A stretch of DNA of 64,000 nt from Antedon mediterranea (GCF_964355755.1 NC_092675.1:28864912-28928911); one strand, 5' to 3'; counted from the stretch's first letter, positions 26,277-60,839 are shown. A program made the numbers and translations. The notes: a model not told the origin generated them from the letters alone.

Positions 26277-28151
26277 ATGCTGTCAAAATTAACAACGTTA
26301 AATGTCAGACAAATAGTTAATTTTTATATAAATATTGCAACTTTACTACCATTAATAGCAAGCCAGGAAGTAATCACAAATATAGCTGACAGAACATACT
26401 TTGCTGGTGAACAACTTACTATCACTTGTAGATTTGAATGTTTTGATGCACCTATTGACAAAAATTACATCAAACTTACAAAGAATGCCATCGACCAGCA
26501 GATATATACATCAGAGTTTGAGTTAACTCATAAAAGAGACAATTACATACTACAGTTATTCGAAATGTCAATATTGAATATTACAGAGTCCCACACAGGA
26601 TCATACAAGTGTGTCTATGATAATGGTATGCCTGTAATATCTAAGCAAGAAAAAACAGTTATAGTTTGGCCAATTCCTGTGAATCCTAAATGTACATCTT
26701 TGCAGCCATTTTATTTTGAAGGACAAAAAGTTAGCATCAAATGTGAAGCTATTGCTACATATCCAGACATTACATTACAATGGAACTCTGACAAATCCAC
26801 TTCTAAAAATCCTCACAACATAACATTCATTGCTGAAAAAGACATTAATGGGTTTGAATATCGATGCTCATTGAATGTACCATCATGGCCATGGAGTTCA
26901 GAAAAAACCTTTGCTTGTAAATTTACAATTTTAGTCACAAATATCAAAATAAACAATTGCGGTAATTTTACATTAGGACAATCAGCAACATTGCAATGCA
27001 TTGTGGATGAAACCATTTCAGATTTCAACTATACTTGGACATCAGAATCTTTAGAGATAGAAATTCATCAAAATAGAAATTCAAATTGCAAGAATGGTAG
27101 CAACAAATATTGCCAAATATTTGGAGATGACAACATTCTAAATATTGAAAGAGTGACAGCTGATATGAACAATGCTGTTATCACTTGTGAGGTACAAGGG
27201 TACAATGTTATTGGAAGAAAATCTAGTATACTTACAGTAAATGGACTACCTACTGTAGAACCTACAACAGATACAATAACTACTATTGAACCTACTAATA
27301 CAGTTGCAACTAAAAGCGATAGAAACTCTAGTAGAATTACTGTTAATGGACCATCTAGACAAGAACCTTCCATAGAAACATTGACAACTCAAAAATACAT
27401 CAAAACGACTACAACATATATTGAAGAGAACAATAGTGCAAACACATTTTTTATTTATGTAACTGTTGCACTTTTTGGATTTCTGCTTTTACTGATAATT
27501 CTAATTAGTGTTATTGTTATTTGTTTTTATCGTTTAAAGAGGTCATTAGGTCAAAGTAATCGAGTTGGCACAAGTCAGGCTATTGTCAGCTATGATAACA
27601 ACTCATACAGAGCAGCTCCCTACAAAGCAGAGCACTATAGAGCAAAGCCCTACAGAGCAGCTCCTTACAAAGCTGTGTCACTGTCAGCCAATGCACAACA
27701 ATTGCATTCTGACAATACTTGCAATAATCGTAAAGATTCACGGGAAGACAACCCTAATCTCCATTTTTATCATGAAATCGCTACAACTTCTGATGATGTC
27801 ACTGATGGTTACATGACCCCCTTGTTTATAGTTAGCCAATTAGATCACCAACAAAACTCTAAACAAGATATCCAAGAAAAACAAGCAGATACAAATATGG
27901 ATAATTTAACAAGCAATTTGGAAGTTGACAATGCATCAGATGATAATGTTGATTTACACACTTATTATGACATCAGCACAACTTTTGATGATGTCACTGA
28001 TGACTACATAACTCCTGTTTCTTTGCTGGAGCAGGTAGACAAAAGTGAAAACTCTAAACACACTGAACTTGAAGAACATCCATGTAAATTAATGTTAGAT
28101 CCTACAAACAGTACGACAGAGTCTATTTATTTAACATTGAGTGATTTATGA
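26277..28151 (+). CDS. R1: three-Ig type-I receptor, N-terminal type I, tail with C-terminal ITIM (624 aa, intact)
   Basis: Uninterrupted ORF: signal, GEQLTITC..HTGSYKC, GQKVSIKC..W..YRC, GQSATLQC..NYTW..NAVITC, Thr stalk, TM FFIYVTVALFGFLLLLIILISVIVICFY, tail ending SIYLTL. Confidence 0.92.
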   Translation: MLSKLTTLNVRQIVNFYINIATLLPLIASQEVITNIADRTYFAGEQLTITCRFECFDAPIDKNYIKLTKNAIDQQIYTSEFELTHKRDNYILQLFEMSILNITESHTGSYKCVYDNGMPVISKQEKTVIVWPIPVNPKCTSLQPFYFEGQKVSIKCEAIATYPDITLQWNSDKSTSKNPHNITFIAEKDINGFEYRCSLNVPSWPWSSEKTFACKFTILVTNIKINNCGNFTLGQSATLQCIVDETISDFNYTWTSESLEIEIHQNRNSNCKNGSNKYCQIFGDDNILNIERVTADMNNAVITCEVQGYNVIGRKSSILTVNGLPTVEPTTDTITTIEPTNTVATKSDRNSSRITVNGPSRQEPSIETLTTQKYIKTTTTYIEENNSANTFFIYVTVALFGFLLLLIILISVIVICFYRLKRSLGQSNRVGTSQAIVSYDNNSYRAAPYKAEHYRAKPYRAAPYKAVSLSANAQQLHSDNTCNNRKDSREDNPNLHFYHEIATTSDDVTDGYMTPLFIVSQLDHQQNSKQDIQEKQADTNMDNLTSNLEVDNASDDNVDLHTYYDISTTFDDVTDDYITPVSLLEQVDKSENSKHTELEEHPCKLMLDPTNSTTESIYLTLSDL

Positions 28152-29081
28152 ACATTAATAGTTAATTAAATGTTAATAGGATAAAAGAAAATACAATGCT
28201 TTTATTAATATTGAATAATATTTTGATCTGATCTGATGAAAGCTGCTTTTTAATTCTGGATATAATATGTTATGAATTATGATTACATTATATACTTGAT
28301 ATATTCATTATTGCTAGAAATATCATGCGGTCAACAAGCAGTAAAATGACTTATTTAAGATGGTCTGTTGGTCATTATACAGAAAATAAATGCTTAATTA
28401 ACACTGAATTGTGTATATAACTTTTGTAAAACACAGTATACAAAAAAATAGAAAACTAATGACTGTAAATGAAAATAAAAGAAAAACTGAAACCATGTAT
28501 TTAAAACTTAACGTCAATAAACAAACTAATTTAAATGCTTTGTTTATCAACCGATGATGGAAATGGCATCAATATTATATATTAAGAAGACAATATAAAA
28601 ACCTTTTCTAATTACTGTAATGAAAACAAAGATGACCAATTAGATCACCAAGATAACTCTAAACAAGGTATCCAAGAAAAACAAGCAGATACAAAAATGG
28701 ATAATTCAACAAGCAATTTGGAAGTTGACAATGCATCAGATGATAATGTTGATTTACACACTTTATTATGACATCAGCACAACTTTTGATGATGTCACTG
28801 ATGACTACATACCTAACTCCTGTTTCTTTGCTGGAGCAGGTAGACAAAAGTGAAAACTCTAAACACACTGAACTTGAAGAACATCCATGTAAATTAATGT
28901 TAGATCCTACAAATAGTACGGCAGAGTCTATTTATTTAACATTGAGTGATTTATGAACACTTAATAGATTAATAGTTAATTAAATGTTAATAGGATAAAA
29001 GAAAATACAATGCCTTTATTATTATTGAATAATATTTTGATCTGATCTGATGAAAGCTCTTTCTTGATTATCTTATAGTTA

Positions 29082-30962
29082 TCTATATATAAATTTACGT
29101 AAGGGCAAAATTCGGTAAATCGCGCCTTACTTTTAGAATTTTCACTCGATGGTATGTAAAGTTGGTTCGTACTTTTGATACTGATTTTAACCGCCTGATG
29201 TAACCCTGTTTACTAATTAAATTGAGTTAGATAATTAGTTATTGACGATTAAAACGAATTTAGGTTCAACGATTTGCCCCAAATAGGGGTGTTTTCCGAT
29301 CGTGGTATACACTGTCTAATGGATGTCCATCTTGAAAAATACCCGCCAAAAAAATGCGAGGAGGCTTCGCATTTTTCTATCTCCTCCTACGATAATTGTT
29401 TTTAATAGCTGAAAACCGGTTGAACAGCTAGAGTACACCATCATAATGTTGAAGACAGGCCGATTTTCTTTAAAAAATACTATTTTGATAGATTTAATAT
29501 ACGATTATACAAATGTATTGATTTGCGATGAATGGAACATCCCAATCTCTCAGTCTGCCAGAGTTTGGTTTAACACAAGTACTGTAGGTAAATTTATGAG
29601 CCCTTGGTTTAACACATACGGTAGGTAAATATATGGGCCCTTTGAGAATAAACTTGCAATAGGTTCGGAAAATGTTAAAAACCAATTTCTATTATTTGAA
29701 TCGGTAAACAGTTTCCATTTATTATACATTGATAATGAAACATGAAATATTCCTATTTATGTCCCTCGAGGTTCATTACAATTTATATTTAGTAGTCCCA
29801 CGGACTTCATCTTAGCCACTCCCCCGAGTGCTAAGGCCAAATTTATGATACCCTACTTTCTATGTAAGTTTAGTTACAGTTAGTTCTTGACGATAATACA
29901 ACGAATTTAGGTTACACCCTTCGGCCGCGAAAACGTTTCTGTACAAATATGATACCGATTGGCTTTATTTCATTCAACAGCGACCATAATCTCGCCAATT
30001 ACAGGATAGATAAACTATTTTATTATTGATGTGCTTATAAATTAAGACTCATGTAAACAGCTTGATTACATCATTTTACAGACAAACGAAACTTTTTTAA
30101 ACCTACTGTTTCAATAACTGAGTATAATACTGTATACGTTTTCATAAGTAAGTGCATATACATTTTCGTGTTTTCATTGACGAGATTGTAATAGTAACTT
30201 CAGTAACTATTACAGTACTTATTTATTATACGACACAAGACAATTGTATCTGACAGGTACGTACATTATTCTAAAAAATAAGTCTAGATAGATCCCTTAG
30301 GCGTCATAAATCACAGGCCAACAAATCAGTACTCATGACAGAAATTCGACCCAGTTTGGTTCACACAAATGTTTACAGGAAGTTCAACACCACAACCGAT
30401 GATTTGCCCTAAATATTTAGGTAGACTACAGTTTAATTTTTCACTGAATAGGAGCTTGAATTTCCGATTTCCATTTCGCAGAATGTCTAGGTCTATTTAT
30501 TTAGTTTGGTTCTTATAATATATAAATACAATCAACTTTATTACTGCGGTTCCATCACCACCACCACGTGCCGCCCAATTCCCGTACATACATTTCCATT
30601 TCTCCCTAATTTCTTTAATCCACATAAATTAATTGTCCTTTATGGAATCGAGTATTGGTTTTGTTGTCTCTATTTCTGAATACCCCAATTAGGGGGACAC
30701 TTCCGTTTTTGTTTAGTGCCGCCCAATTCCCGTACATACATTTCCATTTCTCCCTAATTTCTTTAATCCACACAAATTAATTGTCCTTTATGGAATCCAG
30801 TATTGGTTTTGTTGTCTCTATTTCTGAATACCCCAATTAGGGGGACACTTCCGTTTTTGTTTAGTGTCCCAAAAAAGTCCCCGTCCGTGGATTCTACTGT
30901 ATTCGAGAACCATCTGTGAGCACTCCTAGATGGTACGCGAGCGAAGCGAGCGTGCCATCTAG
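29082..30962 (+). mobile_element. Non-autonomous Helitron (~1.9 kb)
   Basis: 5' A|TCTATATATA; 3' hairpin GGTACGC-GAGCGAAGCGA-GCGTGCC then ATCTAG|T. Sits between A and T with no TSD; absent from the paralogous R1 flank. Confidence 0.8.
30568..30866. repeat. 148-bp direct tandem duplication inside the Helitron
   Basis: GTGCCGCCCAATTCCCGTACATAC... at 30568 and 30716. Confidence 0.95.
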
Positions 30963-31599
30963 TAAATTAAATTACATTATATACTTGATATAATTCATTA
31001 TTGCTAGAAATATCATGTGGTGAATAAGTGGTAAAATGGTTGATAGTAACTTTTTGAAGATGGTCAGTCTACAGAAAATAAATACTGTACTAAATAAATA
31101 CTGAATTGTGTATATAACTTGTGTAAAACACAGTATACAAAAATAGAAAACTAATGACTTTAAATGAAAATAAAAGAAAAACTGAAACCATGTATTTGAA
31201 ACTTAAATGTCAATAAACAAACTAATTTAAATGCTTTCTTTATCAACCAATGATGGAAATGGCATTGAAGACAATATAAAACCTTTCTAATTACTGTAAT
31301 GAAAACAAAGATGCAGTATTGGAGAACAAGAGTTTAGCTTCCTTTAGTTTTAGGATTTTTATTTGATTGTGACATTCTTTCTATAATATATCTTGTACAT
31401 ACATGTATATACACATATATTTTAACTTGGATTTTTTGCAAAAACACACATTTTTAAATTCTTTTATTAATTGCGTTCTTCCTTTTCTCTTTAAATAATA
31501 ATAAGAAATAAAAGCATTTCATTATTTATATATAGATGACACTGTAGCTCCATTATTATTCTTTATCATATTATACCAGAACATATAACTGAAAACTAA

Positions 31600-31735
31600 A
31601 TATTAATGAAAGTGTTGATTTACACACTCATTATGACACCGACTTTGAAGATGTCACTGGTGGATCTACAACTCCAGCTCTTTTGCTGGAGCAGGTTTGA
31701 CACATTAAAGAACACCTCTGTGAAGTAATGGTATA
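31600..31735 (+). pseudogene. Decayed relic of a receptor cytoplasmic tail
   Basis: GTTGATTTACACACTCATTATGACA..GATGTCACTGGTGGATCTACAACTCCAGCTCTTTTGCTGGAGCAGGT matches the VDLHTYYD..DVTDGYITPVLLLEQV coding segment. Confidence 0.7.
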
Positions 31736-32413: not shown

Positions 32414-34231
32414 ATGTTGTCAATAAATATTGTTTATATTTTTTGTGTGAACATTGTAACATTACCACCAATATCAAGTCAAACAGTACAAGTAGATATT
32501 GCAGATAGGATTTATTTTGCTGGTCAACAACTTACTATTACTTGTGAATTTCAATCTTTTCCAGAAAGTATTGATAAAAATAACATAAAAATTACTAAGA
32601 ATGATACATACCAAGTGATAGATACATCAGAGTTTAAGTCAATTTACGCTAAAAACAGGCTACAGTTATTTAAAATATCAATATTGAATATTACAGCGTC
32701 TCACACAGGATCATACAAGTGTGTCTATGATAATGGTATGTATGTAATATCTGAGCAAGAAAAATCAGTTATAGTTTGGCCAATTCCAGTGAATCCTAAA
32801 TGTACATCTTTGCAGCCATTTTATTTTGAAGGACAAGAAGTTAGCATCAAATGTGAAGCTATTGCTACATATCCAGACATTACATTACAATGGAACTCTG
32901 ACAAATCCATTTCTAAAAATCCTCACAACATAACATTCATTGCTAAAAAAGACATGAATGGGTTTGAATATCGATGCTTAACAATTGTACCATCATGGAG
33001 CTCAGAAATATTTGCTTGTAAAATTAAAATTTTAGTCACAAATATTAAAGTATACAACATTGGTAATTACATTTCATTAGGGCAACCAGCAACATTGCAA
33101 TGCATTGTGGATGAAACCATTTCAGATCTCAACTATACTTGGACATCTGAATCTAACAGTTTAGTACGAGAAATTGAACGAAACAGAAATTGTAATTACA
33201 CTGATAGCAACAGAAAAAACTGCCAAATGTTTGGAGATGATACGATCCTATACATTGAGAACGTGACAGCTGATATGAACAATGCTGTTATCACTTGTGA
33301 GGTACAAGGGTATAATGTTATTGGAAGAAACTCAAGTATACTTACTGTAAATGGACTACCTACTGTAGAAACTACAACAGATACAATAACAACTATTGAA
33401 CCTACAGGTACAGTTGCAACTAAAAGCGATAGAAACTCTAGTAGAATTACTATAAATGGACCATCTAGACAAGAACCTTCCATAGATACATTGACAACTC
33501 AAAAATACATCAAAACAACTACAACGTATATTGAAGAGAACAATAGTGCAAACACATTTTTTATTTATGTAATTCTTGCACTTTTTGGATTTCTTCTGCT
33601 ACTGATAATTCTAATTAGTGTTATTGTTATTTGTTTTTATCGTTTAAAGAGGTCATTAGGTCAAAGTAATCAGGTTGCCACAAGTCAGGCTATTGTCAGC
33701 TATGATAACAACTCCTACAGAGCAGCTCCCTACAAAGCAGAGCCCTATAGAGCAAAGCCCTACAGAGCAGCTCCTTACAAAGCTGTGTCACTGTCAGCCA
33801 ATGCACAACAATTGCATTCTTGCTATAATCTTAAAGATTCACAAGATGACAATCCAAAACTTCATTTTTATCATGAAATCCTTACAACTTCTGATGATGT
33901 CACAGATGGTTACATGACCTCCTTGTCTATAGTTAACCAATTAGATCATCATGAAAGCTCTAAATGTGAAGAAGTTATTAAACAAGAGAAACAAGCAGGT
34001 CAACAAACTAATATTAATTTGGAAGTTGACAACACATCAGATGAAAATGTTGATTTACACACTTATCATGAAATCAGCACAACTATTGATGATGTCACTG
34101 ATGGATATATAACTCCAGTCCTTTTGCTGGAGCAGGTAGAAAAAGTTGCAAACTCTAAACACACTAAACTTGAAGTAAAGGTAGATAATAATATGGAGGA
34201 ATCTTTTTATTTAAGATTAAGTGATGTATAA
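32414..34231 (+). CDS. R2: three-Ig receptor, type I, C-terminal ITIM (intact; ORF open from 32297)
   Basis: ATG 32414 aligns with the R1 start (GATAAAATG). Stalk, TM and proximal tail nearly identical to R1; D1 diverged; ends SFYLRL-SDV. Confidence 0.92.
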   Translation: MLSINIVYIFCVNIVTLPPISSQTVQVDIADRIYFAGQQLTITCEFQSFPESIDKNNIKITKNDTYQVIDTSEFKSIYAKNRLQLFKISILNITASHTGSYKCVYDNGMYVISEQEKSVIVWPIPVNPKCTSLQPFYFEGQEVSIKCEAIATYPDITLQWNSDKSISKNPHNITFIAKKDMNGFEYRCLTIVPSWSSEIFACKIKILVTNIKVYNIGNYISLGQPATLQCIVDETISDLNYTWTSESNSLVREIERNRNCNYTDSNRKNCQMFGDDTILYIENVTADMNNAVITCEVQGYNVIGRNSSILTVNGLPTVETTTDTITTIEPTGTVATKSDRNSSRITINGPSRQEPSIDTLTTQKYIKTTTTYIEENNSANTFFIYVILALFGFLLLLIILISVIVICFYRLKRSLGQSNQVATSQAIVSYDNNSYRAAPYKAEPYRAKPYRAAPYKAVSLSANAQQLHSCYNLKDSQDDNPKLHFYHEILTTSDDVTDGYMTSLSIVNQLDHHESSKCEEVIKQEKQAGQQTNINLEVDNTSDENVDLHTYHEISTTIDDVTDGYITPVLLLEQVEKVANSKHTKLEVKVDNNMEESFYLRLSDV

Positions 34232-35522: not shown

Positions 35523-37253
35523 ATGTTGTCACCATTTTTCCTGCTAAACTGTAAAATAATTATTATAGTTTTATGTTTGCAACAATCAACTAGTCTAGCA
35601 GCAGAAACAGGGCGTTTACATCCACCAGGAAGTCCAACAGTAAGCATACGTATTGAGAATAGAAATTATTTTGTTGGCCAAGAACTTCAAGCTACATGTA
35701 CATTTAAATCATTCAACAGGGAAGGAAGATTAAATAAAACTTACATTCAACTGTTACTAAATGATACAGCTTTAACAATTGACCAATCACAGATTGTTAC
35801 TATTTATGTAAGTAGAGATTACTTTATACAGGAATATAAAATAACAATATCAAAACTCACAGAGTCTCACACAGGATCATATAAATGTGGATATATAGAC
35901 GCTAAGGATTTAAATAAATCTTCTACACAAAACATTACAGTTTGGCCAATTCCAAAGGATCCAAACTGTACATCCTCACAATCATTCTATTTTGAAGGAC
36001 AAAATGTGACTTTAACATGTGAAGCTACAGCTTCATATCCAGATCTTGAATTGAGATGGAACTATGATAAACCAACTTCTAAAAATATGTGCATTAAAAC
36101 ATTTGTTGCTCATAACAATGATGATTTGGAAAACCGTTGCCTAATGAATGTACCGTCATGGAGCTCTAAAAGTTTGACTTGTGAAATTAAAATTTTATTA
36201 TTAAACCCTGAAGTGGTTATTGTTGATAACAAGTTTACATTAGGACAACAAGCAACATTGGAATGCATTGTGGGTAACACAAGTAATACTGTCCCAGAAC
36301 TCAACTATACTTGGATATCAGAATCTGAAAGTTTAATGAGAGAAATTGAACGAAATGCAAATCCCAATATCAATGGCAGTAGCAACAACAGCACAAATTG
36401 CCAACAATTTGGAGAAGACAAGATCCTAAACATTGAGAATGTGAAAGCTGATATGAACAATGCTGTTATCACTTGTGAGGTACAAGGGTACAATGTTATT
36501 GGAAGAAACTCAAGTATACTTACTGTAAATAGACTAACTACTGTAGAACCTACAACAGAAACAATTATGACAGAGAAAGAAGTAAGTAGTAATACAAAAA
36601 CTAAAAGTGGTAGAGTGTCCAATGACCCAGACACTGAATTCATTAAAACCATTGCTATAGTTTGTGGAAGTCTTTTACTGATATTTCTGATATACATTAT
36701 GGTTATTTGCTTCCGTCGTTTGAAAATAACTTCAAATCAAGATATCCAAGTTGGTACAAGTGTAACCCATGACAATGACTCTTATAACACAGTGCCATTG
36801 CCCATCAGTGCACCATTGACATCAGACAATACACAATCTTATGGTGATACTTGTCTCACTATCAATATAGAAGAGAACCCTGAATTCCATATTTATCAAG
36901 ACATCAATATAAATTCTGAAGATGTCACTGATGAATACCTAATTCCTCTGGCAATGGTTAAACAATTTGATGGCTCAAATTGTGAAGAAAATATGACATA
37001 TATTAAACAAACATGTGAAGGAATGGTTAATAAGTCAACAAGCAATTTGGAAGGTGACAACACAACAGATGATTTGTACACTCATCATGACATAAGCACA
37101 ACTTTTGATGATGTCACTGTATTTTTTGCAGAAGAGGTTAAAAAAGATGAAAACTCCAAACATACAGAACATGAAGAATACACCTACAAAGAAATTGTAG
37201 ATCCCATTAAAAATGATATAACAGATTCTTTTTATCTTGAGATTATTGAGTAA
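35523..37253 (+). CDS. R3: three-Ig receptor, type II, C-terminal ITIM (intact)
   Basis: Signal MLSPFFLLNCKIIIIVLCLQQSTSLA; GQELQATC..HTGSYKC; TM FIKTIAIVCGSLLLIFLIYIMVICF; ends SFYLEI-IE. Confidence 0.92.
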   Translation: MLSPFFLLNCKIIIIVLCLQQSTSLAAETGRLHPPGSPTVSIRIENRNYFVGQELQATCTFKSFNREGRLNKTYIQLLLNDTALTIDQSQIVTIYVSRDYFIQEYKITISKLTESHTGSYKCGYIDAKDLNKSSTQNITVWPIPKDPNCTSSQSFYFEGQNVTLTCEATASYPDLELRWNYDKPTSKNMCIKTFVAHNNDDLENRCLMNVPSWSSKSLTCEIKILLLNPEVVIVDNKFTLGQQATLECIVGNTSNTVPELNYTWISESESLMREIERNANPNINGSSNNSTNCQQFGEDKILNIENVKADMNNAVITCEVQGYNVIGRNSSILTVNRLTTVEPTTETIMTEKEVSSNTKTKSGRVSNDPDTEFIKTIAIVCGSLLLIFLIYIMVICFRRLKITSNQDIQVGTSVTHDNDSYNTVPLPISAPLTSDNTQSYGDTCLTINIEENPEFHIYQDININSEDVTDEYLIPLAMVKQFDGSNCEENMTYIKQTCEGMVNKSTSNLEGDNTTDDLYTHHDISTTFDDVTVFFAEEVKKDENSKHTEHEEYTYKEIVDPIKNDITDSFYLEIIE

Positions 37254-38697: not shown

Positions 38698-40319
38698 ATG
38701 TTGTCATCAAAGTCAGTTTTAGTGAACTTGTTAATACTATTTCTAACAACTTGCTGTTATTGCCAAGATTCCTATAGCTATGTACCTGAACCAAGTGTTG
38801 ACATTTCCATACCAGAAGGAACATACTTTGCTGGTAATAATTTAAATATTTATTGTGAATATAAATACATTGACAACTTCCATAAGAAACACATTGCACT
38901 TTTACACGATAGTAACATTATTGAGATACACTTTCTTGACTATAGAATAAATAGAAACATTTTTAAAAGAATATATGAAATGAGAAATATGTTAAGGAAT
39001 AACTCTGGATCATACAAGTGTGCATATAATACTAGCAACAAGTCTATTTTTCCATCCAAAGAAAAAGTTATTCAAGTTTGGTCAAAACCAGAGAATCCAA
39101 AATGCAAAGTTTCCCCACAATTCTATTTTGAGGGACAAGAAGTGACATTAATATGTGAAACCAGTGGTACATATCCAGAATTGACCTTAAAATGGGGATT
39201 TGATGAACCCACTTCAAAAAATCATGTTACAAAAAATGTAACCGCCATGAAAGATATTAATGGTTCTAAACATCAATGTATCTTAAATGTAAAGAGTTCA
39301 GTTAAACAGTGTCAAATCATTATTAAAATACATAATGTACACATTTTTGGTAATAATGTTACATTTGGTCAACCAGCAATATTGAAATGCATTGTGTCTG
39401 ATACGAATAATACCATTCCAGAACTCTACTATACATGGACATCAGAATCTAAAAGTTTAAAGAGATTAATTGAAACAGAAAAAAGCAATACAAGTTGTAA
39501 GAATATCAACGGTAACAACACAGATAATTGCCAAACATTTGGAGAAGACAAGATCCTAAACATTGAGAAAGTGACAGCTGATATGAACAATGCTGTTATC
39601 ACTTGTGAGGTACAAGGGTACAATGTTATTGGAAGAGACTCTAGTATACTTACAGTAAATGGACTACCTACTATAGAATTTACAACAGATACAATAACTA
39701 CTATAGAACCTACAAGATATAGAGCTACGACAGAAAAAGATAAGCACACTAGAAGAGAACTAACTACACAAGAAAATACAAAAACTGAAAGTAGTAGAAA
39801 CGACGACAAATTCATTAAAACAATTGCTATAGTTTGTGGAATCTTTTACTTATATTTCTGATATATATTATGGTTATTTGCTTCCGTCGTTGGAAAATAA
39901 CTTTAAATCAAGATATCCAAGTTGGTACAAGTATAACCTGTGACAATAACTCTTATAACACAGTGCCATTGCCCATAAGTGCACCATTAACATCAGACAA
40001 TGCACAATCTCACATTACTTGCCTTAAAGAAGAGAATCCTGAATTTCATATTTATCAGGATATTAACATAAATGCTGAAGACGTCACTGATGATTACCTT
40101 ATTTCTTTGAAAACATGTAACCAACATGATCAGAGCTCTAATTGTGAAGAAAATATAAACAATATAAACCAGGAACAAGCCTGTGAAGGAACAACAAACA
40201 ATTTTGAAGTTGACAACACAACGGGTGGCAGTGTTGATTTACACACTTATCATGACATAAGCACAACTTTTGATGATGTCACTGATGGATACCTAACTCC
40301 TGTAACTTGGCAGAGCTAA
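38698..40319 (+). pseudogene. R4: three-Ig receptor, type III; 1-nt deletion in the TM gives a 387-aa truncated product
   Basis: TGTGGAATCTTTTA here versus TGTGGAAGTCTTTTA in R3 (deletion at ~39841). The tail continues in another frame to 40319; out-of-frame SFYLDI relic at ~40395. Confidence 0.85.
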
Positions 40320-41550
40320 AACAGAGTTAAAAACAATGTAAACTTGAAAAACTATTTTACTAAAAAATGGTAGATTCCATTAAAAAGTACACATTCTTTT
40401 TATCTTGATATTATTGAATAAATGATTAGGATAGGTTAAACATTATTAAAACATATCTGAGTAGACTCTTTTGATTAGATTGTGGGTCACATGATATTCA
40501 ATCAATACCCCATTGAATCCATACATCATCAATTTGGTATATGGCCGTTGAATTTTTTTATATTGCCATTCATTTTTGTACAATGAGCAACAACCACATG
40601 CAATACAAGGATATGCTGCTCTGTCTGTAATTGTTCTTAACAAATCTTTTCGATTTGTTTAGGCCTTATACTAGCTTCTCATAAAATGTAGGTGTTTCAC
40701 CTCATCAAATTATTGTACAATTGCACTCATTATTTAGATAATATAAAATACAGCTACTACATGTAGTTACAAATACAGTACTGTTGATTATATCCTATAA
40801 AAGGATTAACAATTATATTCTTAATATGATGTACAGTTTAGATTTTATCTAAGACCTTAGCTCCATCTACAGTTTCTATTTCCTTCTCATATTTAATAAT
40901 TGTAATTATATGAAAAAGTTAATGTTAAGGGTTTTTCAAGAAAAACCAAATAATTTTTCTCATCAAACATCATTGAAAAATAAACTGGAACAATAAGCAA
41001 TGTCTGTTTTGTTTTGTGCTGATATTTGTAAAACAAATAAAAGTGAAAGTGAAATAAACTTTACATATCTGGAAACAGTTTCAGCCTGATACCTGGATTT
41101 TGTTCATATAATATCCAACATAAATCATAATCTCCAATATTGCTCTGCGCTTTAATGATTTTAATTAGTTTTGTAGAGAGCCCTATACAGAGGGCGCTAT
41201 ATAATTATTAAAAATACTGAAATGAGAAACTGATTCAGTTAAGTTACACTAAACTGCCTACAATATATCTGAAATTGTGAAGAATCAAATGTATATTTAT
41301 ATAAACACCAAATATATGATCAGTTCAAATGTTTATTTGTAAATGGTTTTGCTGTATAAATGTCCTTATTAACAACATTGTAAGATGATCTTAAGTTTTC
41401 TGTATTGAAATTATTATAGAGGGCAGTGTAGACTGCTACAGCTCAGCAAATCTCTACAAAGCAGTTGATCTCGACTAAGCAGTGCATAAAGTTGTTGTTT
41501 TTTATAAGAAAAATGCATATTTATCTACTTAACTGCCACGAAAAATTATT

Positions 41551-42500
41551 ATTGGAAGAGACTCTAGTATACTTACAGTAAATGGAATAATAATATCATT
41601 CCAGAACTCAACTATACATGGACATCAGAATCTAAAAGTTTAAAGAGATTAATTGAAACAGAAAAAAGCAATACAAGTTGTAAGAATATTAACGGTAACA
41701 ACACAGATTGCCAAACATTTGGAGAAGACAAGATTCTAAACATTGAGAAAGTGACAGCTGATATGAACAATGCTGTTATCACTTGTGAGGTACAAGGATA
41801 CAATGTTATTGGAAGAAACTCAAGTATACTTACTGTAAATGGACTACCTACTGTAGAACCTGTAACATATAGAATAACTACTATAGAAACTACAAGATAT
41901 AGAGTTACAACAGAGAATGATAAGCACACTAGAAGAGAACTAACTACACAAGAAAATACAAGAAGTAAGGAGAACAGTGACAATGAGACTTACCATGACA
42001 GCAACAGACATTTTACTTATATATTTATCATTGTTGCTATTTTTGGATGTCTAATGTTATTGATATTTCAAATCTACATTCTGGTTATTTGCTTCCATCG
42101 CTTTAAGGCTTCAAATCAAAGTGTACCTCAGGTTGGCACAACTCCACATACTATCGGCTATGTCAATGACTCTTACAACACAGTACCATTGTCCATCAGT
42201 GCACCATCTACATCAGACAATACACAATCTCATGGTGACATTATTTTCAATAATCTTACGAAAGAAGAATTCCATATTTATCAGGATATCAACACAAATT
42301 CTGATGACATCACAGATGACTACCTAATTCCTTTGACAATAGTTAAACAACATGATCACAGCTCTAATTGTGATCAAAATGTAAGAGAAATTAAACATGA
42401 GGAAGAAACTTGTCGAGGAAGGGTAAAGTCAACATAATCCGGAAGTTGACAACACAGATGAAATTGGTAATTTACATACTTATTATAACAGCAACTTTTG
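41551..42500 (+). pseudogene. R5: 5'-truncated receptor (part of D3, stalk, TM, tail)
   Basis: No signal, D1 or D2. Starts with an out-of-order fragment of the invariant block (41551-41586); D3/stalk nearly identical to R4; TM/tail like R6/R7; premature stop at 42435-42437. Confidence 0.88.
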
Positions 42501-44647
42501 ATAAATGTCACAGATGATAAATTACTCCTATCTATAGAACCATAGTCTGACTATAATAGAACCTAAATATATACTGTATTGAACTTGAAGAACACTCATA
42601 TAAAAGTAAAGATTCAGGGATAAGCCCACCTATTCTCAAAGGATAAGGAGGACACCCATTCCCATAGATTCCTCTTCCAGGACGGTGGTCAATGCAGCCG
42701 GTGGTCAATGCAGCCAGTACAGATCATTTTGGGCACATTCCTAAAGATCCTGAGATGACAGCCCTTTTCTTGAGTAATATATAAAATGTAAATATTTTGG
42801 ATAGATTAAACATATTATTAGCACATTAATAATTAATACAACATTTACTTTTTTTTCTGATGATAGTGTATAATAATTTGTTGGAGAGACACACCTTACC
42901 GGTGACAGCGTTTTGTTTAATGCTTTTGTCTTTCCTCGGCCTCGTGTCTTGTTTTTCATATATATATATATATTTCTATGTTTTTCGTTTTTGTTTTTGT
43001 TTTTTTTGTTGTAATTATTATTTTATGTTTATTGCCGAAATGAATAAAATAAATAAATAAATAAATAAGGAACTGCTTATTTGTGAAAAAGATTGTATAA
43101 ACATTTCATGCAAATTAACAATAAAAACTAAACTGTAGAAGTCACTGGTATCTTTAAATTGTTTTGTTTACTTCTTTTGCATGTTGATGTTTCTAACAAA
43201 TAAAACTGAAAGTGAAATAAAGTGTAGACATCTGACGACAGTTTTAGACTAACATTTGTTTAAACTATTGCTGACATCATATTACTCATACATTTTTTAA
43301 ATTATTATTTGTTCAGCGGCAAAACCATCAAATTATTTTTATTTAAAATGTTTGAATTTTAGTGGAATATTCAAAGATTTTAAATAAAAATAAAGAAACA
43401 AAACTTTGGAACTTATTATAACAACTTAACTCCAGTAAATTTTGCATCTCAGTATATGTGCAGGATTTATTTTTAGGGGTGTACTTTGCGAGGGGAGCGA
43501 GTAAAAATAGATAAAAAAATTAATAAAAATATATACATTCTGAATAAATCAGTGATAAAAAATAAACTCTCTATGACTAATAGTTTTTGAGAAATGGTAA
43601 TATTAAATGTAATTTCACCCTAAGTTACATATTTAAGCTAATTTGCATATCATCGGGATGAGTGCAAATAATACAAATAATTGTTTTCTATGAGTTTAAT
43701 GTGGAAAATATGTTCATTTGTTGACTAAAAATGCTCTCTCTATTCAATATATTAAATACAGAAAACATTTAATTATTTCTTAACACATCTACTACATTAG
43801 ATCAGTATTTCATTGTTCATTTCGGTTTCAGTCATAAACACAAAACCTGACACTGCCATCATGAGTTGATGTCAATCAAACCACAACAAAAAGGCGGTGC
43901 TATATGATTTTGGCTGAACAATTATAGATGGCGCACTATAGGTTTGCTTTTACAATGGCATACTATTTTTCCATTAGAACTGTTGCGAGATAAAGCAACT
44001 CAAAATGTTTACAAAGAAAAAGTGGGGGGGGGGGGAGGAGTTGGGGGTTTTTCGTAATAAGCTGTGTTCATCAGCTGATTTTATTTTATTTTATTTTATA
44101 CACTTTTACTATATCTTGTTTTGTATTCATTGTGTAAAGTAATGATCTACTGTATGTATCGATGTAAATTGGGGGGGGGGGGGGGGGTAGGATAGGGGTT
44201 GATAGTTGCTTTTGCCTTTTTTTACTTTTCTGTTAATTGTTATATTTTATATTGTGAAGGATGCACCTTTGTGGTAAGTGTGCCACCGATCTAAAGGTGT
44301 AAATCCAAATAAATAAATAAATAAATACAAGCTGATTATCAAACGGAAGTAATTGAACATCACATACAAATTATCAATGCCATGTGATATGAAATCAACC
44401 AATAAGGTGGCAAAGATATACGTAAGTTTGTTATAAATTTAACTACTCTACCATGATCTAAGCAGTGACAATTGAAGAACAAAACAAGAATTGTGTCCAA
44501 ATTTTCTTGGGAAAATTAGAATAACACTGACAGTATATAAAGTTTACATGCTATTTTAATGAATCAATTGTGTATGAAAGCCTTTACTGTAAATACTCAA
44601 GTGGACTAGCTGCTGCAATTTGTTGTTTATAGATTAAACTGAATACA
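42480..44647 (+). repeat. Segmental duplication unit (3' flank of R5 to upstream of R6), paralogous to 53979-55995; its 5' part also occurs at 60845-61470
   Basis: Long colinear matches, e.g. GGGATAAGCCCACCTATTCTCAAAGG.., CATAAACACAAAACCTGACACTGCCATCATGAGTTG and TTGTTGTTTATAGATTAAACTGAATACAATG. Confidence 0.9.
44015..44325 (+). mobile_element. Retroposon 3' fragment with (AAAT)n tail inserted upstream of R6
   Basis: Absent from the R8 paralogous flank (GTTTACAAGCTGAT); flanked by a TACAA duplication; stem-loop then (AAAT)n. A similar insertion lies at ~42876-43063. Confidence 0.65.
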
Positions 44648-46231
44648 ATGAACAGGAATCGTGGACTAGATACAATGTTGTTTCAATGCTTTTCAACAAT
44701 ACAACTTGGAAAATTATTTATGGTTACTTGCTATTTACATGTTGTTTCATCTGAGCAAACACACCAACCATTTATAAAAGAGGAAATCCCAAAAATAAGC
44801 ATAAGTACTGAAGATAAGACTTATTTTGCTGGCCAAGAACTTACTTTCACTTGTGAATTTGAATGGTTTCAAACACGTATCCACCAAATAGACATACAGC
44901 TTTCACAAAATGGTTCTTTTTTACCTAAAGATTCAGTTAAGATTGTTACAGGTTTCTCAACTGGGGATTACAGTATACAGGATTTTACAGTAATAATTTT
45001 AAATCTCACAAGGTCTCACACGGGATCATACAAATGTGTCTATGATAATGGTATGTATGTAATATCTGAGCAAGAGAAATCAGTTACAGTTTGGCCAATT
45101 CCAGTGAATCCTAAATGTACATCTTTGCAGCCATTTTATTTTGAAGGACAAGAAGTTAGCATCAAATGTGAAGCTATTGCTACATACCCAAACATTAAAC
45201 TAATATGGATCTCAGATAATGGCACTTATAAAAATCATCACATCATAACATTCTTTGCTAAAAAAGACATGAATGGGTCTGAATATCGATGTTTAACAAA
45301 TGTACCATCATGGAGCTCAAAAATATTTGATTGTAAAATTACAATTTTTGTCACAAATATTGAGATTGTTGTTGAAAATAATTTTACGTTGGGACAACCA
45401 GCAACATTAGAATGCATTGTGGGTAACACCACTCAAGTACTCAACTATACTTGGACATCAGAAAAAAGTAGTTTAAAAAGAGGAATTAAACAAAATCCAA
45501 ATTGTACAAATATCAATGGTGGTAGCAGCAAAAATACCAACTGTCCAACATTAGGTGATGAGAAGATACTGAAGATTGAGAAAGTGACAGCTGATATGAA
45601 CAATGCTGTTATCACTTGTGAGGTACAAAGGTACAATGTTATTGGAAGAAACTCTAGTATACTTACTGTAAATGAACTACCTACTGTAGAACCTACAACA
45701 GATACAATAACTATAGAAACTACAATTCTGAAAACTAAGCAAACTAGAAATGGACTAAATACACACAAACCTACAAATACTGATCATAACAATAACATTC
45801 AGAGTGGCAATGACAATAACAATATGATTTATGTCATCTTTGCTATTTTTGGATCTCTGATGTTATTGATATTTCAAATCTACATTCTGGTTATTTGCTT
45901 CCATCGTTTTAAGGCATCAAATCAAAGTGTTCATCAGGTTGGTACAACTCCACCTACTATCAGCTATGTCAATGACTCTTACAAATCAGTGCCATTCTCC
46001 ACAAATGCACCATCTACATCAGACAATACACAATCCCATGGTGACATTATTTTCAATAATCTTAAGAAACAAGGGAATGCTGAATTTCATATTTATCAGG
46101 AAATCAACACAACGTCTGATGACATCACTGGTGACTACCTAATTCCTTTGACAATAGTTAAACAATTTGATCACAGCTCTAATTGTGAACAAAATATAAA
46201 AGATATTAAATACAAAGAAACAAGCCTGTGA
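44648..46231 (+). CDS. R6: three-Ig receptor, type IV; tail shortened by a +1 frameshift near 46220 (527 aa)
   Basis: Open ORF with signal, three Ig domains and TM IYVIFAIFGSLMLLIFQIYILVICF. GAAACAAGCCTGTGAA here versus GAACAAGCCTGTGAA in R4; the rest of the tail is out of frame to ~46420. Confidence 0.88.
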   Translation: MNRNRGLDTMLFQCFSTIQLGKLFMVTCYLHVVSSEQTHQPFIKEEIPKISISTEDKTYFAGQELTFTCEFEWFQTRIHQIDIQLSQNGSFLPKDSVKIVTGFSTGDYSIQDFTVIILNLTRSHTGSYKCVYDNGMYVISEQEKSVTVWPIPVNPKCTSLQPFYFEGQEVSIKCEAIATYPNIKLIWISDNGTYKNHHIITFFAKKDMNGSEYRCLTNVPSWSSKIFDCKITIFVTNIEIVVENNFTLGQPATLECIVGNTTQVLNYTWTSEKSSLKRGIKQNPNCTNINGGSSKNTNCPTLGDEKILKIEKVTADMNNAVITCEVQRYNVIGRNSSILTVNELPTVEPTTDTITIETTILKTKQTRNGLNTHKPTNTDHNNNIQSGNDNNNMIYVIFAIFGSLMLLIFQIYILVICFHRFKASNQSVHQVGTTPPTISYVNDSYKSVPFSTNAPSTSDNTQSHGDIIFNNLKKQGNAEFHIYQEINTTSDDITGDYLIPLTIVKQFDHSSNCEQNIKDIKYKETSL

Positions 46232-48962: not shown

Positions 48963-50549
48963 ATGTTGTCACCAAAGTCAGTTTTAGTGAACTCGTTGAT
49001 ACTATTTACAACTTGCTGTTATTGCCAAGATTCCTATAGCTATGTACAACCACTGCCTGAACCAAGTGTTGACATTTTCATTCCGGTAGGAACATCCTTT
49101 GTTGGTAATAATTTAACTATTTCTTGTGAATATAAATACATTGACAACTTCCATAAGAAACACATTGTACTTTTACACAATAGTAACATTATTGAGATAC
49201 ACTTTTTTGACTATCGAATAAACAAAGACCTTTTTAAAAGAATATATGAATTGAAAAATCTTTTAAACAATAACTCTGGATCATACAAATGTGCATATAA
49301 TACTAGCAACAAGTCTATTATTCCATCTGAAGAAAAAGTTATTAAAGTTTGGTCGAAACCAGAGAATCCCAAATGCAAAGTTTCTCCACAATTCTATTTT
49401 GAAGGACAAGAAGTGACATTAACATGTGAAACCAGTGGTACATATCCAGAATTTACCTTAAAATGGGGACTTGATCAACCCACTTCAAAAAATCAAGTTA
49501 CAAAAATCGTAACTGCGATGAAAAATATTAATGGTTCTGAACATCAATGTATCTTGAATGTACAGAATTCAGTTAAACATTGTCAAATCATTATTAAAAT
49601 ACATAATGTACACATTTTTGGTAATAATGTTTCATTTGGTCAACCAGCAATTTTGCAATGCATTGTGTCTGGTATGAATAATACCATTCTAGAACTCAAC
49701 TATACATGGACATCAGAATCTGAAAGTTTAAAGAGAATAATGGAAATGGAAAAAAGAAATACAAGTTGTAAGAATATCAACGGTAACAACAAAGACTGCC
49801 AAACATTTGGAGAAGACAAGATCCTAAACTTTGAGAAAGTGACAGCTGATATGAACAATGCTGTTATCACTTGTGAGGTACAAGGGTACAATGTTATTGG
49901 AAGAAACTCTAGTATACTTACTGTAAATGGACTACCTACTGTAGAACCTACAAGATATAGAGCTACGACAGAAAAAGATACACAAGAAAATACAAAAAGT
50001 AAGGAGAACAGTGACAATGAGACTTACAATGAAAGCAACAACAATGTTACTTATATATATGTCATTGTTGCTTTTTTTTGATCTCTGATGTTATTGATAT
50101 TTCAAATCTATATTCTAGTTATTTGCTTCCATTGTTTTAAGGCATCAAATCAAATTGTTCCTCAGGTTGGCACAACTCCAGCTACTATCAGCTATGTCAA
50201 TGACTCTTACAGAGCCTTGCCATTGTCCACCAGTGCACCATCTACATCAGACAATGCACAATCTCATGGTGATATTATTTTAAATAATCTGAAGAAAGAA
50301 AAGAATGCTGAATTCCATATTTATCAGGATATCAACACAACGTCTGATGACATTAAAGATGATTACCTAATTCCTTTGACAATAGTTAAACAATTTGATA
50401 ACGGCCCTAAATGTCAAGAAAATATAAGAGATATTGAACATGAGGAAGAAACTTGTCAAGGAATGGTAAAGTCAACAAGCAATCTTGAAGTTGACAACAC
50501 AGATGAAATTGTTGATTTACATACTTATTATAACATCAGCAACTTTTGA
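48963..50549 (+). pseudogene. R7: three-Ig receptor, type III; in-frame TGA in the TM gives a 372-aa truncated product
   Basis: GCT TTT TTT TGA TCT CTG ATG versus R6 GCT ATT TTT GGA TCT CTG ATG. The downstream ORF 50088-50549 is in the same frame and open. Confidence 0.85.
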
Positions 50550-50604
50550 TAAATATTCACAGATGATAAATTACTCCTATCTATAGAACCATAGTCTGAC
50601 TATA

Positions 50605-55995: not shown

Positions 55996-58061
55996 ATGAA
56001 CAGGAATTTTGAACTAAATACAATGTTGTTTCAATGCTTTTCAACTATACAACTTAGAATATTATTGATGGTTACTTGTTGCTTGCATGTTGTTTCACCT
56101 GAGCTAACACACCCACCATTTGTATTTGTGGGGAAAAAACCAATAATCATAAGTACTGAAGACAAAACTGTTTTTGCTGGCCAAGAACTTTCTTTCATTT
56201 GTAGATTTGAATGGTTTCAAACACGTATCCACCAAATAGAAATAAAGCTTTCACTAAATGGTTCTTTTCTACCTAAAGATTCAGTTAAGATTGTTAAAGT
56301 TTTCTCAAATGGGGATTACAGTATACAGGATTTTACAGTAACAATTTTAAATCTCACAGAGCTTCACACAGGATCATATAATGTGTCTATGATAATGGTA
56401 TGTATGTAATATCTGAGCAAGAGAAATCAATTACAGTTTGGCCAATTCCAGTGAATCCTAAATGTACATCTTTGCAGCCATTTTATTTTGAAGGACAAGA
56501 AGTTAGCACCAAATGTGAAGCTATTGCTACATATCCAGACATTACACTAAAATGGAACTCAGATAATTACACTTCTCAAAATCCTCACATCATAACATTT
56601 ATTGCAAAGAAAGAATTGAATGGGTTTGAATATCGATGTTTAATTAACATACCATCATGGAGCTCAAAAAGCTTTGATTGTAAAATTATAATTGTTGTCT
56701 CAAATATTGAGATTGTTGCTAATAATTTTACATTAGGACAACCAGCAGCATTGCAATGCATTGTGGGTAACACAACTCAAGTACTCAACTATACTTGGAC
56801 ATCAGAAAAAAGTAGTTTAAAAAGAGGAATTCAACAAAATTCAAATTGTAAAAGTATCAATGGTGGTAGCAGCAAAAATACCAACTGTTCAACATTAGGC
56901 AATGAGAAGATTCTGAACATTGAGAATGTGACAGCTGATATGAACAATACTGTTATCACTTGTGAGGTACAAGGGTACAATGTTATTGGAAGAAACTCTA
57001 GTATACTTACTGTTAAAGAAAATACTGTAGAACATACAACAGAAACAATAACTATAACAGATAAAACTATGACTACTAGAGAAAAACATAATGGAAATGA
57101 CAGTGACACTGACAGTAAGTTAATTTATTTTGTTGTTGGAATATTTGGATCTGTTACATTATTGATATTCCTAATCTATATTGTGAGAATTTGCTTCCAA
57201 TTTGTCACAAAATCTTCAAACCAAAGCAGCGGGGTTGGTACAATACAAGCTATTGTAAGCTATGATAACGATTCTTACAGAACAGTGCCATTGGTGGTTC
57301 GTGCACCACCACCCAAGTTTGCCACTAAACTCCACCATACATCACAGCAATTATTAACAGACAACCAGATGAGTTCTGCTTCGAGTGTGATCTCTTTACC
57401 AGATGAAAGACAACGTCAAGGCATGAAACAAACATGGATATCGACACGTCACCTAACACCAGTACATTCAACCACTACATTTGGATCTAGTGATGACGAA
57501 TATACACACAGCATTGGTGAAATGTTTGATGACCCTATGTATGATGAGATAAATTCTAAAACATTGAAAAATCAGAGGGAAGATTTGAGAACAGAAGCAG
57601 ACCAAGTTGAACCTACTTGGAGTGGTGCAATACACAGAGATGGCAACGGAGCTGATGGTGATAAACACAAAACAAACACTGAAGATCCATATCAAGAAAT
57701 TGGAAATGAGTTTACAGCAAGAAACAAAAGACGAACATCAGAAGAAAATGCTTTGAATCCGTATGAGAAAATATCAGAATTGGAAGCTGGTTTTAATTCC
57801 GAAGAGGTGAATGAAAGTATCTATTCACAACCAGATAAGAAGAAATCCTCTCAAGAGACATGCCCTGATAATAAACAAGAGTTTGGAAAAACACAAACAA
57901 AATCAAACGGCAGTGAAACAGAACATATCTACTCTCAAGTTAACAAAAAGTTGAAAAACAAAGTTTTAAAGGATCAGTATCTGGAGATATATGCAGAGAC
58001 TGTGGACGTTGTCAGGAGTGATGGAAGTGAGTCTGAAGATGAAACAGAAACTACATGTTAA
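55996..58061 (+). pseudogene. R8: three-Ig receptor, type IV, with a unique long tail; 1-nt deletion in D1 at ~56380
   Basis: GGATCATATAATGTGTC versus GGATCATACAAATGTGTC in R6. The remaining 553 codons are open; the tail diverges from the paralogs after SYRTVPL. Confidence 0.85.
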
Positions 58062-59183: not shown

Positions 59184-60839
59184 ATGTTGTCACAATTGTT
59201 TACTTTAAATTTTCAAATAATGATTATGGCTTCATGTTTGCATACTACAACATCAGAAACAGAACATTTACCACCAGGAACTCCAACAGTACGCATACAT
59301 ATTGAAAAAAAAGAATATTATTTTGTGGACCAAGAACTTCAAGCTACTTGTACATTTGAATCATTCAACAGGGAAGGAAGTTTAAATAAAATGTACATTC
59401 AACTTTTACTAAATGATACAGTTTTACCAATTGATCCATCACAGATTCTCACTAAACATGTAAGTAAAGATTACATGACACAGGATTATCGAATACCAAT
59501 TTCAAAACTCACAGAGTCTCACACAGGATCATATAAATGTGGATATATAGATGATAAGGGTTTACATAAATCTTCTACACAAAACATTACAGTTTGGCCA
59601 ATTCCAAAGGATCCAAACTGTACATCCTCCCAACCATTCTATTTTAAAGAACAAAACGTGACCTTAACATGTGAAGCCATTGCTTCATATCCAGATCTTG
59701 AATTGAGATGGAACCCTGATAAACCAGCTTCTAAAAACAATCACAACAAAATATTAATTGCTAATAAAGATGTGGAAAGTCGTTGCATAATGAATGTACC
59801 ATCATGGAACTCAACAACATTTTTTTGTGATATTAAAATTTTAGTCACAAATCTTGAAGTGTATAATATTGATAATTTTACATTAGGACAACCAGCAACA
59901 TTGCAATGCATTGTAGGTACCATCAATAATACTGTTCCAGAACTAAACTATACTTGGATATCAGAGTCTAGCAGTTTAAACAAAGAAATAAAACAAAATG
60001 CAAATCCAAATTGCAAGAAAACCAATAGTAATAATAGCAACAGCACAAACTGCATTGGAGAAGACAATATTCTGAACATTGAGAAAGTGACAGCTAATAT
60101 GAACAATGCTGTTATCACTTGTGAGGTACAAGGGTACAATGTTATTGGAAGAAACTCTAGTATACTTACTGTAAATGGACTACCTACTGTAGAACCTACA
60201 ACAGATACAATAACTACTACAGAATCTATAACAAATGCAATAACTACTATAGAAACTACAACAGAGAAAATTATGACTACAAAAGAAAAACATACTGGAA
60301 ATGAAAATGCAAATAAAGATGAAACAAAAAGTAGTAACAATAACAATCTAATTTACTTTGTTGTTGGTATATTTGGATCTCTCACATTATTAATATTTCT
60401 AATCCTTGTTGTCGGAATTTGTATCCAGGGCATAAAAAAATCTTCAAACCAAAGCAGCGGGGTGGGTACAACTCCACCTACTATCAGCTATGTCAATGAC
60501 TCTTACAACACAGTACCATTTTCCACCAGTGCACAATCTACATCAGACAATACACAATCTCATGAAGATATTATTTTCCATAATCTCAATAAAGAAGAGA
60601 ATGCTGAATTCCATATTTATCAGGACATCAACACAACGTCTGATGACATCACTGGTGACTACCTAATTCCTTTGACAATAGTTAAACAATTTGATCACAG
60701 CTCTAATTGTGAACAAAATGTAAAAGATATGAAACATGAAGCTTGTGAAGGAAAGGTAAAGTCAACAAGCAATCTGGAAGTTAACAACACAGATGAAAAT
60801 GTTGATTTACACACTTATTATGACATCAGAAACTTTTGA
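59184..60839 (+). CDS. R9: three-Ig receptor, type II, tail without C-terminal ITIM (intact)
   Basis: Signal MLSQLFTLNFQIMIMASCLHTTTS; D1/D2 like R3, TM like R8, tail like R6/R7, ending HTYYDIRNF. Confidence 0.92.
   Translation: MLSQLFTLNFQIMIMASCLHTTTSETEHLPPGTPTVRIHIEKKEYYFVDQELQATCTFESFNREGSLNKMYIQLLLNDTVLPIDPSQILTKHVSKDYMTQDYRIPISKLTESHTGSYKCGYIDDKGLHKSSTQNITVWPIPKDPNCTSSQPFYFKEQNVTLTCEAIASYPDLELRWNPDKPASKNNHNKILIANKDVESRCIMNVPSWNSTTFFCDIKILVTNLEVYNIDNFTLGQPATLQCIVGTINNTVPELNYTWISESSSLNKEIKQNANPNCKKTNSNNSNSTNCIGEDNILNIEKVTANMNNAVITCEVQGYNVIGRNSSILTVNGLPTVEPTTDTITTTESITNAITTIETTTEKIMTTKEKHTGNENANKDETKSSNNNNLIYFVVGIFGSLTLLIFLILVVGICIQGIKKSSNQSSGVGTTPPTISYVNDSYNTVPFSTSAQSTSDNTQSHEDIIFHNLNKEENAEFHIYQDINTTSDDITGDYLIPLTIVKQFDHSSNCEQNVKDMKHEACEGKVKSTSNLEVNNTDENVDLHTYYDIRNF

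What the first reader, a model, noticed from the sequence alone, without database searches (positions are those of the whole stretch)
27153..60200. Module shuffling without introns: paralogs are mosaics joined at a near-invariant ~110-bp block
Seen: N-termini group as I (R1,R2), II (R3,R9), III (R4,R7), IV (R6,R8). TMs group differently: (R1,R2), (R3,R4), (R5,R6,R7), (R8,R9), and R9 then switches to the R6/R7 tail. Between the two parts every copy has GTGACAGCTGATATGAACAATGCTGTTATCACTTGTGAGGTACAAGGGTACAATGTTATTGGAAGAAACTC..ATACTTAC.GT (starts 27153, 33263, 36441, 39571, 41751, 45584, 49839, 56928, 60087), conserved even at synonymous sites. Inference: this block serves as a recurrent gene-conversion or unequal-crossover junction that recombines recognition ectodomains with signalling tails, giving combinatorial diversity.
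Basis: partly seen in the sequence, partly recalled or inferred. Interest (0 to 1): 0.88.

Follow-up and report, generated by a model that had tools for sequence, protein, structure and literature searches.

The report
Patchwork Ig-receptor cluster with homogenised island
Nine tandem single-exon immunoglobulin-type receptor genes in an animal genome are patchworks whose outer and inner halves have different ancestries and share one near-identical 90-120-base stretch, likely kept uniform by ordinary gene conversion and serving as one of several swap points rather than a dedicated shuffling joint.

Summary
The block is at all nine coordinates. Its 90-bp core is 94-99% identical between copies, against 71% just upstream between ectodomain types, and fourfold-site divergence is 0.07 against 0.22-0.28 in the other main segments. 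Ectodomain and transmembrane trees are incompatible (AU p<1e-30). The genes are 3-Ig + stalk + TM + tyrosine-motif receptors; the nearest named full-length relatives are crinoid CADM2-like proteins (23%). The junction claim is only partly right. Of three ectodomain/TM swaps required, one maps to the block (R6/R8/R9), one lies about 90 bp past it (R4), and one is unresolved (R3/R9). Shared tracts end at about 15 places along the gene. Best reading: recurrent non-allelic conversion and unequal crossover, with a self-reinforcing island of identity that anchors some exchanges, as known from clustered protocadherins, TLR1/6 and paired receptors. No independent read bridges the block, so the specific combinations rest on this assembly.

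The parts
18429..19883 (+). R0: distant single-ORF 3-Ig + TM paralogue (484 aa, 24% to R1); lacks the block
   Evidence: not found by the block search
26277..28151 (+). R1, intact (624 aa): ectodomain type I, TM type a, C-terminal ITIM-like motif
27153..27273 (+). Block copy 1 (end of Ig3, inferred F-G strands, plus first Thr-rich unit)
32414..34231 (+). R2, intact (ORF from 32297): type I, TM a
33263..33383 (+). Block copy 2
35523..37253 (+). R3, intact (ORF from 35454): type II, TM b
36441..36561 (+). Block copy 3
38698..40421 (+). R4: type III, R5/R7-like stalk, TM b; 1-bp deletion near 39841 ends the frame inside the TM (stop 39861)
39571..39691 (+). Block copy 4
39775..39784 (+). R4 partner switch from R5/R7 to R3, about 90 bp past the block
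41549..41586 (+). Tenth, partial block copy: 38/38 to R4 39626-39663 (33-36/38 to the other eight), joined to the 5' break of R5
41587..42560 (+). R5, 5'-truncated (starts in Ig3): type III, TM c
41751..41871 (+). Block copy 5
44675..46231 (+). R6, intact with shorter tail (ORF from 44648): type IV, TM c
45584..45704 (+). Block copy 6; identity with R8 ends here
48963..50549 (+). R7: type III, TM c; stop at 50079-50081 early in the TM
49839..49957 (+). Block copy 7, followed by a 30-bp deletion in the Thr repeat
56023..58061 (+). R8: type IV, R9-like stalk and TM d, unrelated long tail; 1-bp deletion near 56381 in Ig1
56928..57045 (+). Block copy 8; R9-like stalk (44/50) starts at 57051
59184..60839 (+). 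R9, intact with shorter tail (551 aa): type II, TM d, c-type tail from about 60465
60087..60207 (+). Block copy 9
26588..26761 (+). Second homogenised tract (end of Ig1 into Ig2), 92-97% among R1, R2, R6, R8 whose Ig1 domains are about 58-60% alike between types; R1 coordinates

Best explanation
The cluster is a tandem array of single-exon Ig receptors whose ectodomain, stalk/TM and tail segments have different ancestries, likely through repeated non-allelic gene conversion and unequal crossover, and the block is likely a self-reinforcing island of identity where short conversion tracts still pass between otherwise diverged copies and where some, not most, longer exchanges end. Shown: the island, its low synonymous divergence, the incongruent trees, the six ectodomain-by-TM combinations among types II-IV and b-d, and the positions of the switches. 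Inferred: conversion as the homogenising force; the feedback (identity permits strand exchange, exchange restores identity); tolerance of conversion here because the membrane-proximal end of Ig3 does not set ligand specificity; an immune or cell-recognition role for the proteins.
For: Synonymous collapse confined to the block; star-like block tree, length 0.22 against 0.89-2.2 for five other segments. Variants inside the core are 7 non-synonymous to 5 synonymous, not different from neutral (p=0.16), and only the Cys and one Gly of the block are invariant once R0 and four outside relatives are added, so protein constraint alone does not explain it. The two shared variable sites of the core group R2+R3+R5 and R1+R4, clades of neither flanking tree. 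The block stays uniform in the four broken copies. The R6/R8 tract ends and the R8/R9 stalk begins at the block; the R1/R2 3' tract starts there or within about 30 columns; R4/R5 identity drops from 202/207 to 150/166 inside it (p=0.003, cut chosen post hoc); a break scar lies inside it. Other tracts also begin at a locally conserved stretch (end of Ig1).
Against: GC3 in the block is 0.19 against 0.24 and 0.27 in the flanks, so the GC rise reported for converted fugu protocadherin regions (PMC1852091) is absent. No orthologous cluster was available for the paralogue-versus-orthologue test. Twelve variants give little power to exclude purifying selection (omega about 0.4). None of the 32 contig pieces listed (9519 more not shown) bridges a block with 31 letters on both sides.
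Confidence: 0.65

Rival explanations
1. The block is a true recombination hot spot and the main joint that swaps ectodomains onto TM/tail modules, possibly favoured by selection.
For: It lies at the ectodomain/stalk boundary; one of three required swaps maps there and one more is compatible; the R5 truncation has two breakpoints inside the block; it abuts a Thr-rich repeat with slippage deletions.
Against: R4's swap is about 90 bp downstream; about 13 other change-point places; enrichment p 0.02-0.23. No unusual DNA or RNA fold (z -0.2 to -1.3 on the + strand). Crossovers alone would not make nine copies star-like.
Confidence: 0.18
2. The block is conserved by selection on its own nucleotides or residues (an exonic regulatory element, small-RNA target or partner-binding surface), and the mosaics are a separate matter.
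For: Omega about 0.4 in the core; near-invariance across all four ectodomain types.
Against: No Rfam match at E<=1 in 351 bases; no fold signal; residues not kept in R0 or four outside relatives; retained in broken copies; protein selection would not fix synonymous sites.
Confidence: 0.12
3. Part of the pattern is an assembly or polishing artefact (chimeric joins or collapsed consensus at the block).
For: The block is a repeat long enough to break short-read graphs; no independent bridge was listed; two of three frame lesions lie in homopolymers.
Against: No N in 64 kb; each block copy carries private variants; most switches lie outside the block; mosaic partners are 78-96% alike, not identical; non-coding flanks show matching older duplications.
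Confidence: 0.05

Closest known systems
Clustered protocadherins, regional homogenisation (PMC1852091, passages read)
   Same: Tandem paralogues with long uninterrupted coding exons; membrane-proximal part homogenised down to synonymous sites while N-terminal domains diverge.
   Different: There the converted region spans several hundred residues, is subcluster-specific and GC3-rich. Here it is 90-120 bp, shared by all four types, not GC-rich, with diverged sequence on both sides, and each gene carries its own tail.
Paired Ig receptors SIGLEC5/14 and SIGLEC11/16 (PMC4042635, passages; PMC5701461, listing only)
   Same: Neighbouring Ig receptors in which one ectodomain type is joined to different TM/tail modules by conversion or fusion.
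   Different: Those are multi-exon (recalled) and pair an ITIM receptor with a DAP12-coupled one. Here no charged mid-TM residue is seen, and three ectodomain types and three TM types form six combinations.
TLR1/TLR6 (PMC2077338, abstract)
   Same: Tandem immune receptors with conversion confined to one region.
   Different: About 300 residues including TM and TIR, two genes; not Ig.
SpTransformer / Sp185/333 of sea urchin (PMC5103432, passages)
   Same: Clustered invertebrate genes that are mosaics of shared blocks within one exon; conversion and recombination proposed.
   Different: Two-exon genes with presence/absence elements and flanking STRs, and almost no pseudogenes; here Ig/TM receptors and 4 of 9 copies broken.
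Crinoid 'cell adhesion molecule 2-like' proteins P0113 (Anneissia japonica) and P0151 (Antedon mediterranea)
   Same: Same 3-Ig + stalk + TM layout, Cys/Trp pattern and Ig1-Ig2 linker.
   Different: 23% identity to R9; block residues not shared; the names are automatic annotations.

Membership tests
Type I Ig-superfamily receptor | Ig domains | tested here: met
   Pfam Ig_3 at E 1e-6 to 1e-14 in 8 of 9 proteins scanned; the ninth (R8 fragment lacking Ig1) Ig_2 E 0.003
Type I Ig-superfamily receptor | Signal peptide and single TM helix | tested here: met
   Read from the sequences; predicted helix 387-424 at pLDDT 73-85 in an otherwise poor model, mean 46
Paired receptor family (Siglec/KIR/LILR-like) | Inhibitory members with ITIM-like motif | tested here: inconclusive
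   Consensus match in 3 of 8 tails scanned (R1, R2, R3); motif definition recalled; phosphatase binding untested
Paired receptor family (Siglec/KIR/LILR-like) | Activating members with a charged TM residue and short tail | tested here: not met
   By eye no Lys, Arg, Asp or Glu in mid-TM of any copy; c-type TMs carry a Gln
Paired receptor family (Siglec/KIR/LILR-like) | Same ectodomain type on different TM/tail | tested here: met
   R3/R9, R4/R7, R6/R8
Conversion-homogenised region | Synonymous divergence depressed against flanks | tested here: met
   0.067 against 0.22-0.28
Conversion-homogenised region | Raised GC3 | tested here: not met
   0.19 against 0.24 and 0.27
Conversion-homogenised region | Paralogues closer than orthologues across species | not testable with these tools
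   No genome held; no close homologue found
Clustered protocadherin | Cadherin repeats; variable exons spliced to shared constant exons | tested here: not met
   Only Ig families hit the ectodomains; each intact frame has its own tail; splicing not tested
SpTransformer (Sp185/333) | Two exons, element patterns, flanking STRs | tested here: not met
   Single ORFs with Ig and TM; no STR arrays beside the genes except after R9
CADM/nectin-like adhesion molecules | Orthology and conserved cytoplasmic binding motifs | tested here: inconclusive
   23% identity to an automatically named crinoid protein; tail motifs not compared

The most novel reading that the evidence does not exclude
An invertebrate receptor family uses a short coding-sequence cassette at the base of Ig3 as a maintained recombination joint, an intron substitute, that re-pairs ligand-binding ectodomains with different signalling tails across generations or even in somatic immune cells; the type III copies may also give soluble decoys by losing the TM twice independently.
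Probability: 0.12. Interest if true: 0.8.

Novelty: new member of a known kind. Interest (0 to 1): 0.42.

Why it matters
It is a compact, clear case of ectodomain/tail swapping in an invertebrate Ig-receptor family for which four literature searches found no description. It gives a testable setting for whether a short island of identity sustains itself and steers where paralogues recombine. If junctions in populations pile up in the block, it would be a module-shuffling route for intronless genes; on present evidence it is ordinary cluster dynamics with an unusually short and uniform island.

Tried and rejected
RNA or DNA structure in the block: z -0.72, -0.38, -0.19 (RNA, three copies), +0.07 (R1 minus strand), -1.33 and -1.21 (DNA): no signal. 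Rfam: 0 matches. GC-biased conversion: not seen. Close homologues of R9 in 5.8 billion proteins: 0 of 5167 candidates. Profile search: 1158 hits at E<=0.001, mostly long multi-Ig proteins; 3 of the best 150 match as one full-length stretch. Atlas: generic Ig clusters from several phyla, one unnamed echinoderm cluster. AlphaFold model too poor to search (mean pLDDT 46). No RNA holder listed, so nothing on expression. Contigs of 4 runs laid on 26100-46099 cover the genes in short pieces and cannot confirm combinations; a finer read-level look at one junction was not obtained. Antisense open frames over the block in R4-R8 were taken as shadows of the sense frame and not pursued. Splicing to a shared constant exon is not needed, since every intact copy has its own tail, but was not tested. 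No earlier notes exist for this genome or sequence.

Full report
Setting. The window is 31.9% GC with no N. Its first 17 kb hold short exon-like frames of a thrombospondin-repeat gene (motif recognised from memory), so this is an animal genome. From 18.4 kb there is one distant paralogue (R0) and nine related copies R1-R9 on the + strand. Each intact copy is one frame: signal peptide, three Ig domains, Thr/Asn-rich stalk, TM, tyrosine-rich tail. R1, R2, R3, R6 and R9 are intact; R4 (frameshift in TM), R5 (5'-truncated), R7 (stop in TM) and R8 (frameshift in Ig1) are not. No close relative was found (0 of 5167 candidates). Three of the best 150 profile hits match over the full length; the one I could name is a crinoid 'cell adhesion molecule 2-like' protein at 23% identity. 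An echinoderm host is an inference of modest strength.

The block is real. It starts at all nine stated positions and encodes the end of Ig3 around its second Cys plus the first Thr-rich unit. In the 90-column core 78 columns are invariant and pairs are 94-99% alike; between ectodomain types the 170 columns upstream are 71% alike. No shuffle of 5000, at three block sizes, reaches its window score of 0.948; the next best window is 0.815 (8 copies, R5 left out). Fourfold sites differ at 0.067 against 0.22-0.28 in the other main segments (0.50 on 36 pair-codons just upstream). Its tree is nearly a star, length 0.22 against 0.89-2.2.

The mosaic is real. On 8 copies, three ectodomain segments give one topology, and the TM segment rejects it at AU p<1e-30; the ectodomain segments reject the TM tree (p-AU 0.003 to 1e-40). 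Leaving aside R1/R2, the copies show II-b (R3), II-d (R9), III-b (R4), III-c (R5, R7), IV-c (R6), IV-d (R8). This is a closed cycle of three ectodomain and three TM types, which needs at least three exchanges.

Where the exchanges lie. R6 and R8 are 91% alike up to the block and 55% after it, and R8's stalk matches R9 from its first base (44/50): this swap maps to the block or the repeat behind it. R4 follows R5 through the first 88 stalk bases and meets R3 only at about 39775-39784, about 90 bp past the block: this swap does not. The recent R3/R9 tract ends in Ig2 (column 575) and fades to 78%, so its TM switch cannot be placed. With block columns removed, 20 of 36 pairs have a segment of 85% or more. 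Grouped by hand, their change points fall at about 15 places: end of Ig1, several in Ig2 and early Ig3, 33 bp before the block, the block (R6/R8 end, R1/R2 start), stalk end, TM start, juxtamembrane (R9), and four in the tail. The block and its repeat cover 7.5% of columns; 2 of 12 to 4 of 15 events give p from 0.23 to 0.02.

Directly before truncated R5 lies a 38-bp piece of the block, 38/38 to R4 and 33-36/38 to the other eight copies. The order is flank, block columns 1010-1047, then back to early Ig3. A 260-bp tandem duplication followed by deletion, or template-switch repair, would give this (inferred); either way breakpoints fell inside the block. R4/R5 identity also drops inside the block, 202/207 to 150/166, though largely through private changes in each copy. 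This is one event, not a rate.

Why the block is uniform. Protein constraint does not fix synonymous sites. The core's variants are 7 non-synonymous and 5 synonymous (neutral not rejected, p=0.16), and only its Cys and a Gly are invariant when R0 and four outside relatives are aligned. There is no fold signal and no Rfam match. The two shared variable sites unite copies that are clades in neither flanking tree. Short conversion tracts explain all of this. That conversion rate depends on homology is stated in PMC3966226 (first of three parts read), and that selection leaves alternating low and high divergence along converting duplicates in PMC3924837 (three passages). The feedback applied to this block is my inference. 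Against it, GC3 is not raised, and the cross-species test could not be done.

Independent data. Thirteen runs from five studies hold part of 26200-34300, none on record as RNA. Contigs of four runs cover the genes in short pieces; none of the 32 listed pieces bridges a block. Summed depth is higher in the bins holding the R1 and R2 blocks in a same-species run and in a second organism (68 against 25; 241 against 52). This hints that the block is shared among copies there too, but depth is no copy number. The combinations therefore rest on this assembly.

Comparison. It works like regional conversion in clustered protocadherins (PMC1852091, passages) and TLR1/TLR6 (PMC2077338, abstract), and gives ectodomain/tail swaps like SIGLEC5/14 (PMC4042635, passages); Sp185/333 is the echinoderm precedent for within-exon mosaics (PMC5103432, passages). 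It is a member of none. Four searches listed no paper on such a family; the library lacks most subscription journals, and no supplements were read. An earlier scan note on a glutamate-receptor-like array in another genome reached a similar verdict; it is not independent evidence.

Verdict. Observation confirmed; interpretation partly supported. A real, apparently undescribed receptor cluster shaped by known processes, with an unusually short, all-member island that anchors some exchanges. Interest 0.42.

Noticed in passing
window 50605-53978: 3374-bp element with 105-bp perfect terminal inverted repeats (arms about 1.26 kb at 91%, with about 290-300-bp sub-repeats) and an apparent 3-bp target duplication, inserted in R7's 3' flank; the empty site is seen behind R5 and R9.
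   Followed up: partly
window 39841 and 50079-50081: Both full-length type III copies (R4, R7) lose their frame inside the TM by different lesions on different TM types while the ectodomain frame is intact: possible soluble forms, or errors; R7's lesion lies in a T run.
   Followed up: partly
window 57290-58061: R8's tail after the juxtamembrane part has no other match in the window and carries six YxxPhi motifs: a tail likely captured from elsewhere.
   Followed up: partly
window 28636-29069: 94% duplicate of R1's tail end (27836-28255), followed by a very high-copy repeat region at about 29080-31300 with summed contig depth up to 250,000 against about 15-25.
   Followed up: no
window 41589-46345 and 48963-57292: R5-R6 and R7-R8 with their spacers look like a duplicated two-gene cassette (spacer matches 79-94%); 3' flank types group R3, R4, R6 and R5, R7, R9.
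   Followed up: partly
window 38106-40106: Summed contig depth over type III sequence is 120-160 against 22-25 for the 5' bins of R1 and R2 in the best holder: a hint of more type III copies elsewhere, not a copy number.
   Followed up: no
window 5665-16982: Multi-exon gene on the + strand with at least 15 thrombospondin-type-1-like exons, directly upstream of the cluster.
   Followed up: no
window 27606-27660 and 33714-33783: 15-bp tandem repeat in the R1 and R2 tails encoding Tyr-containing pentapeptide repeats.
   Followed up: no
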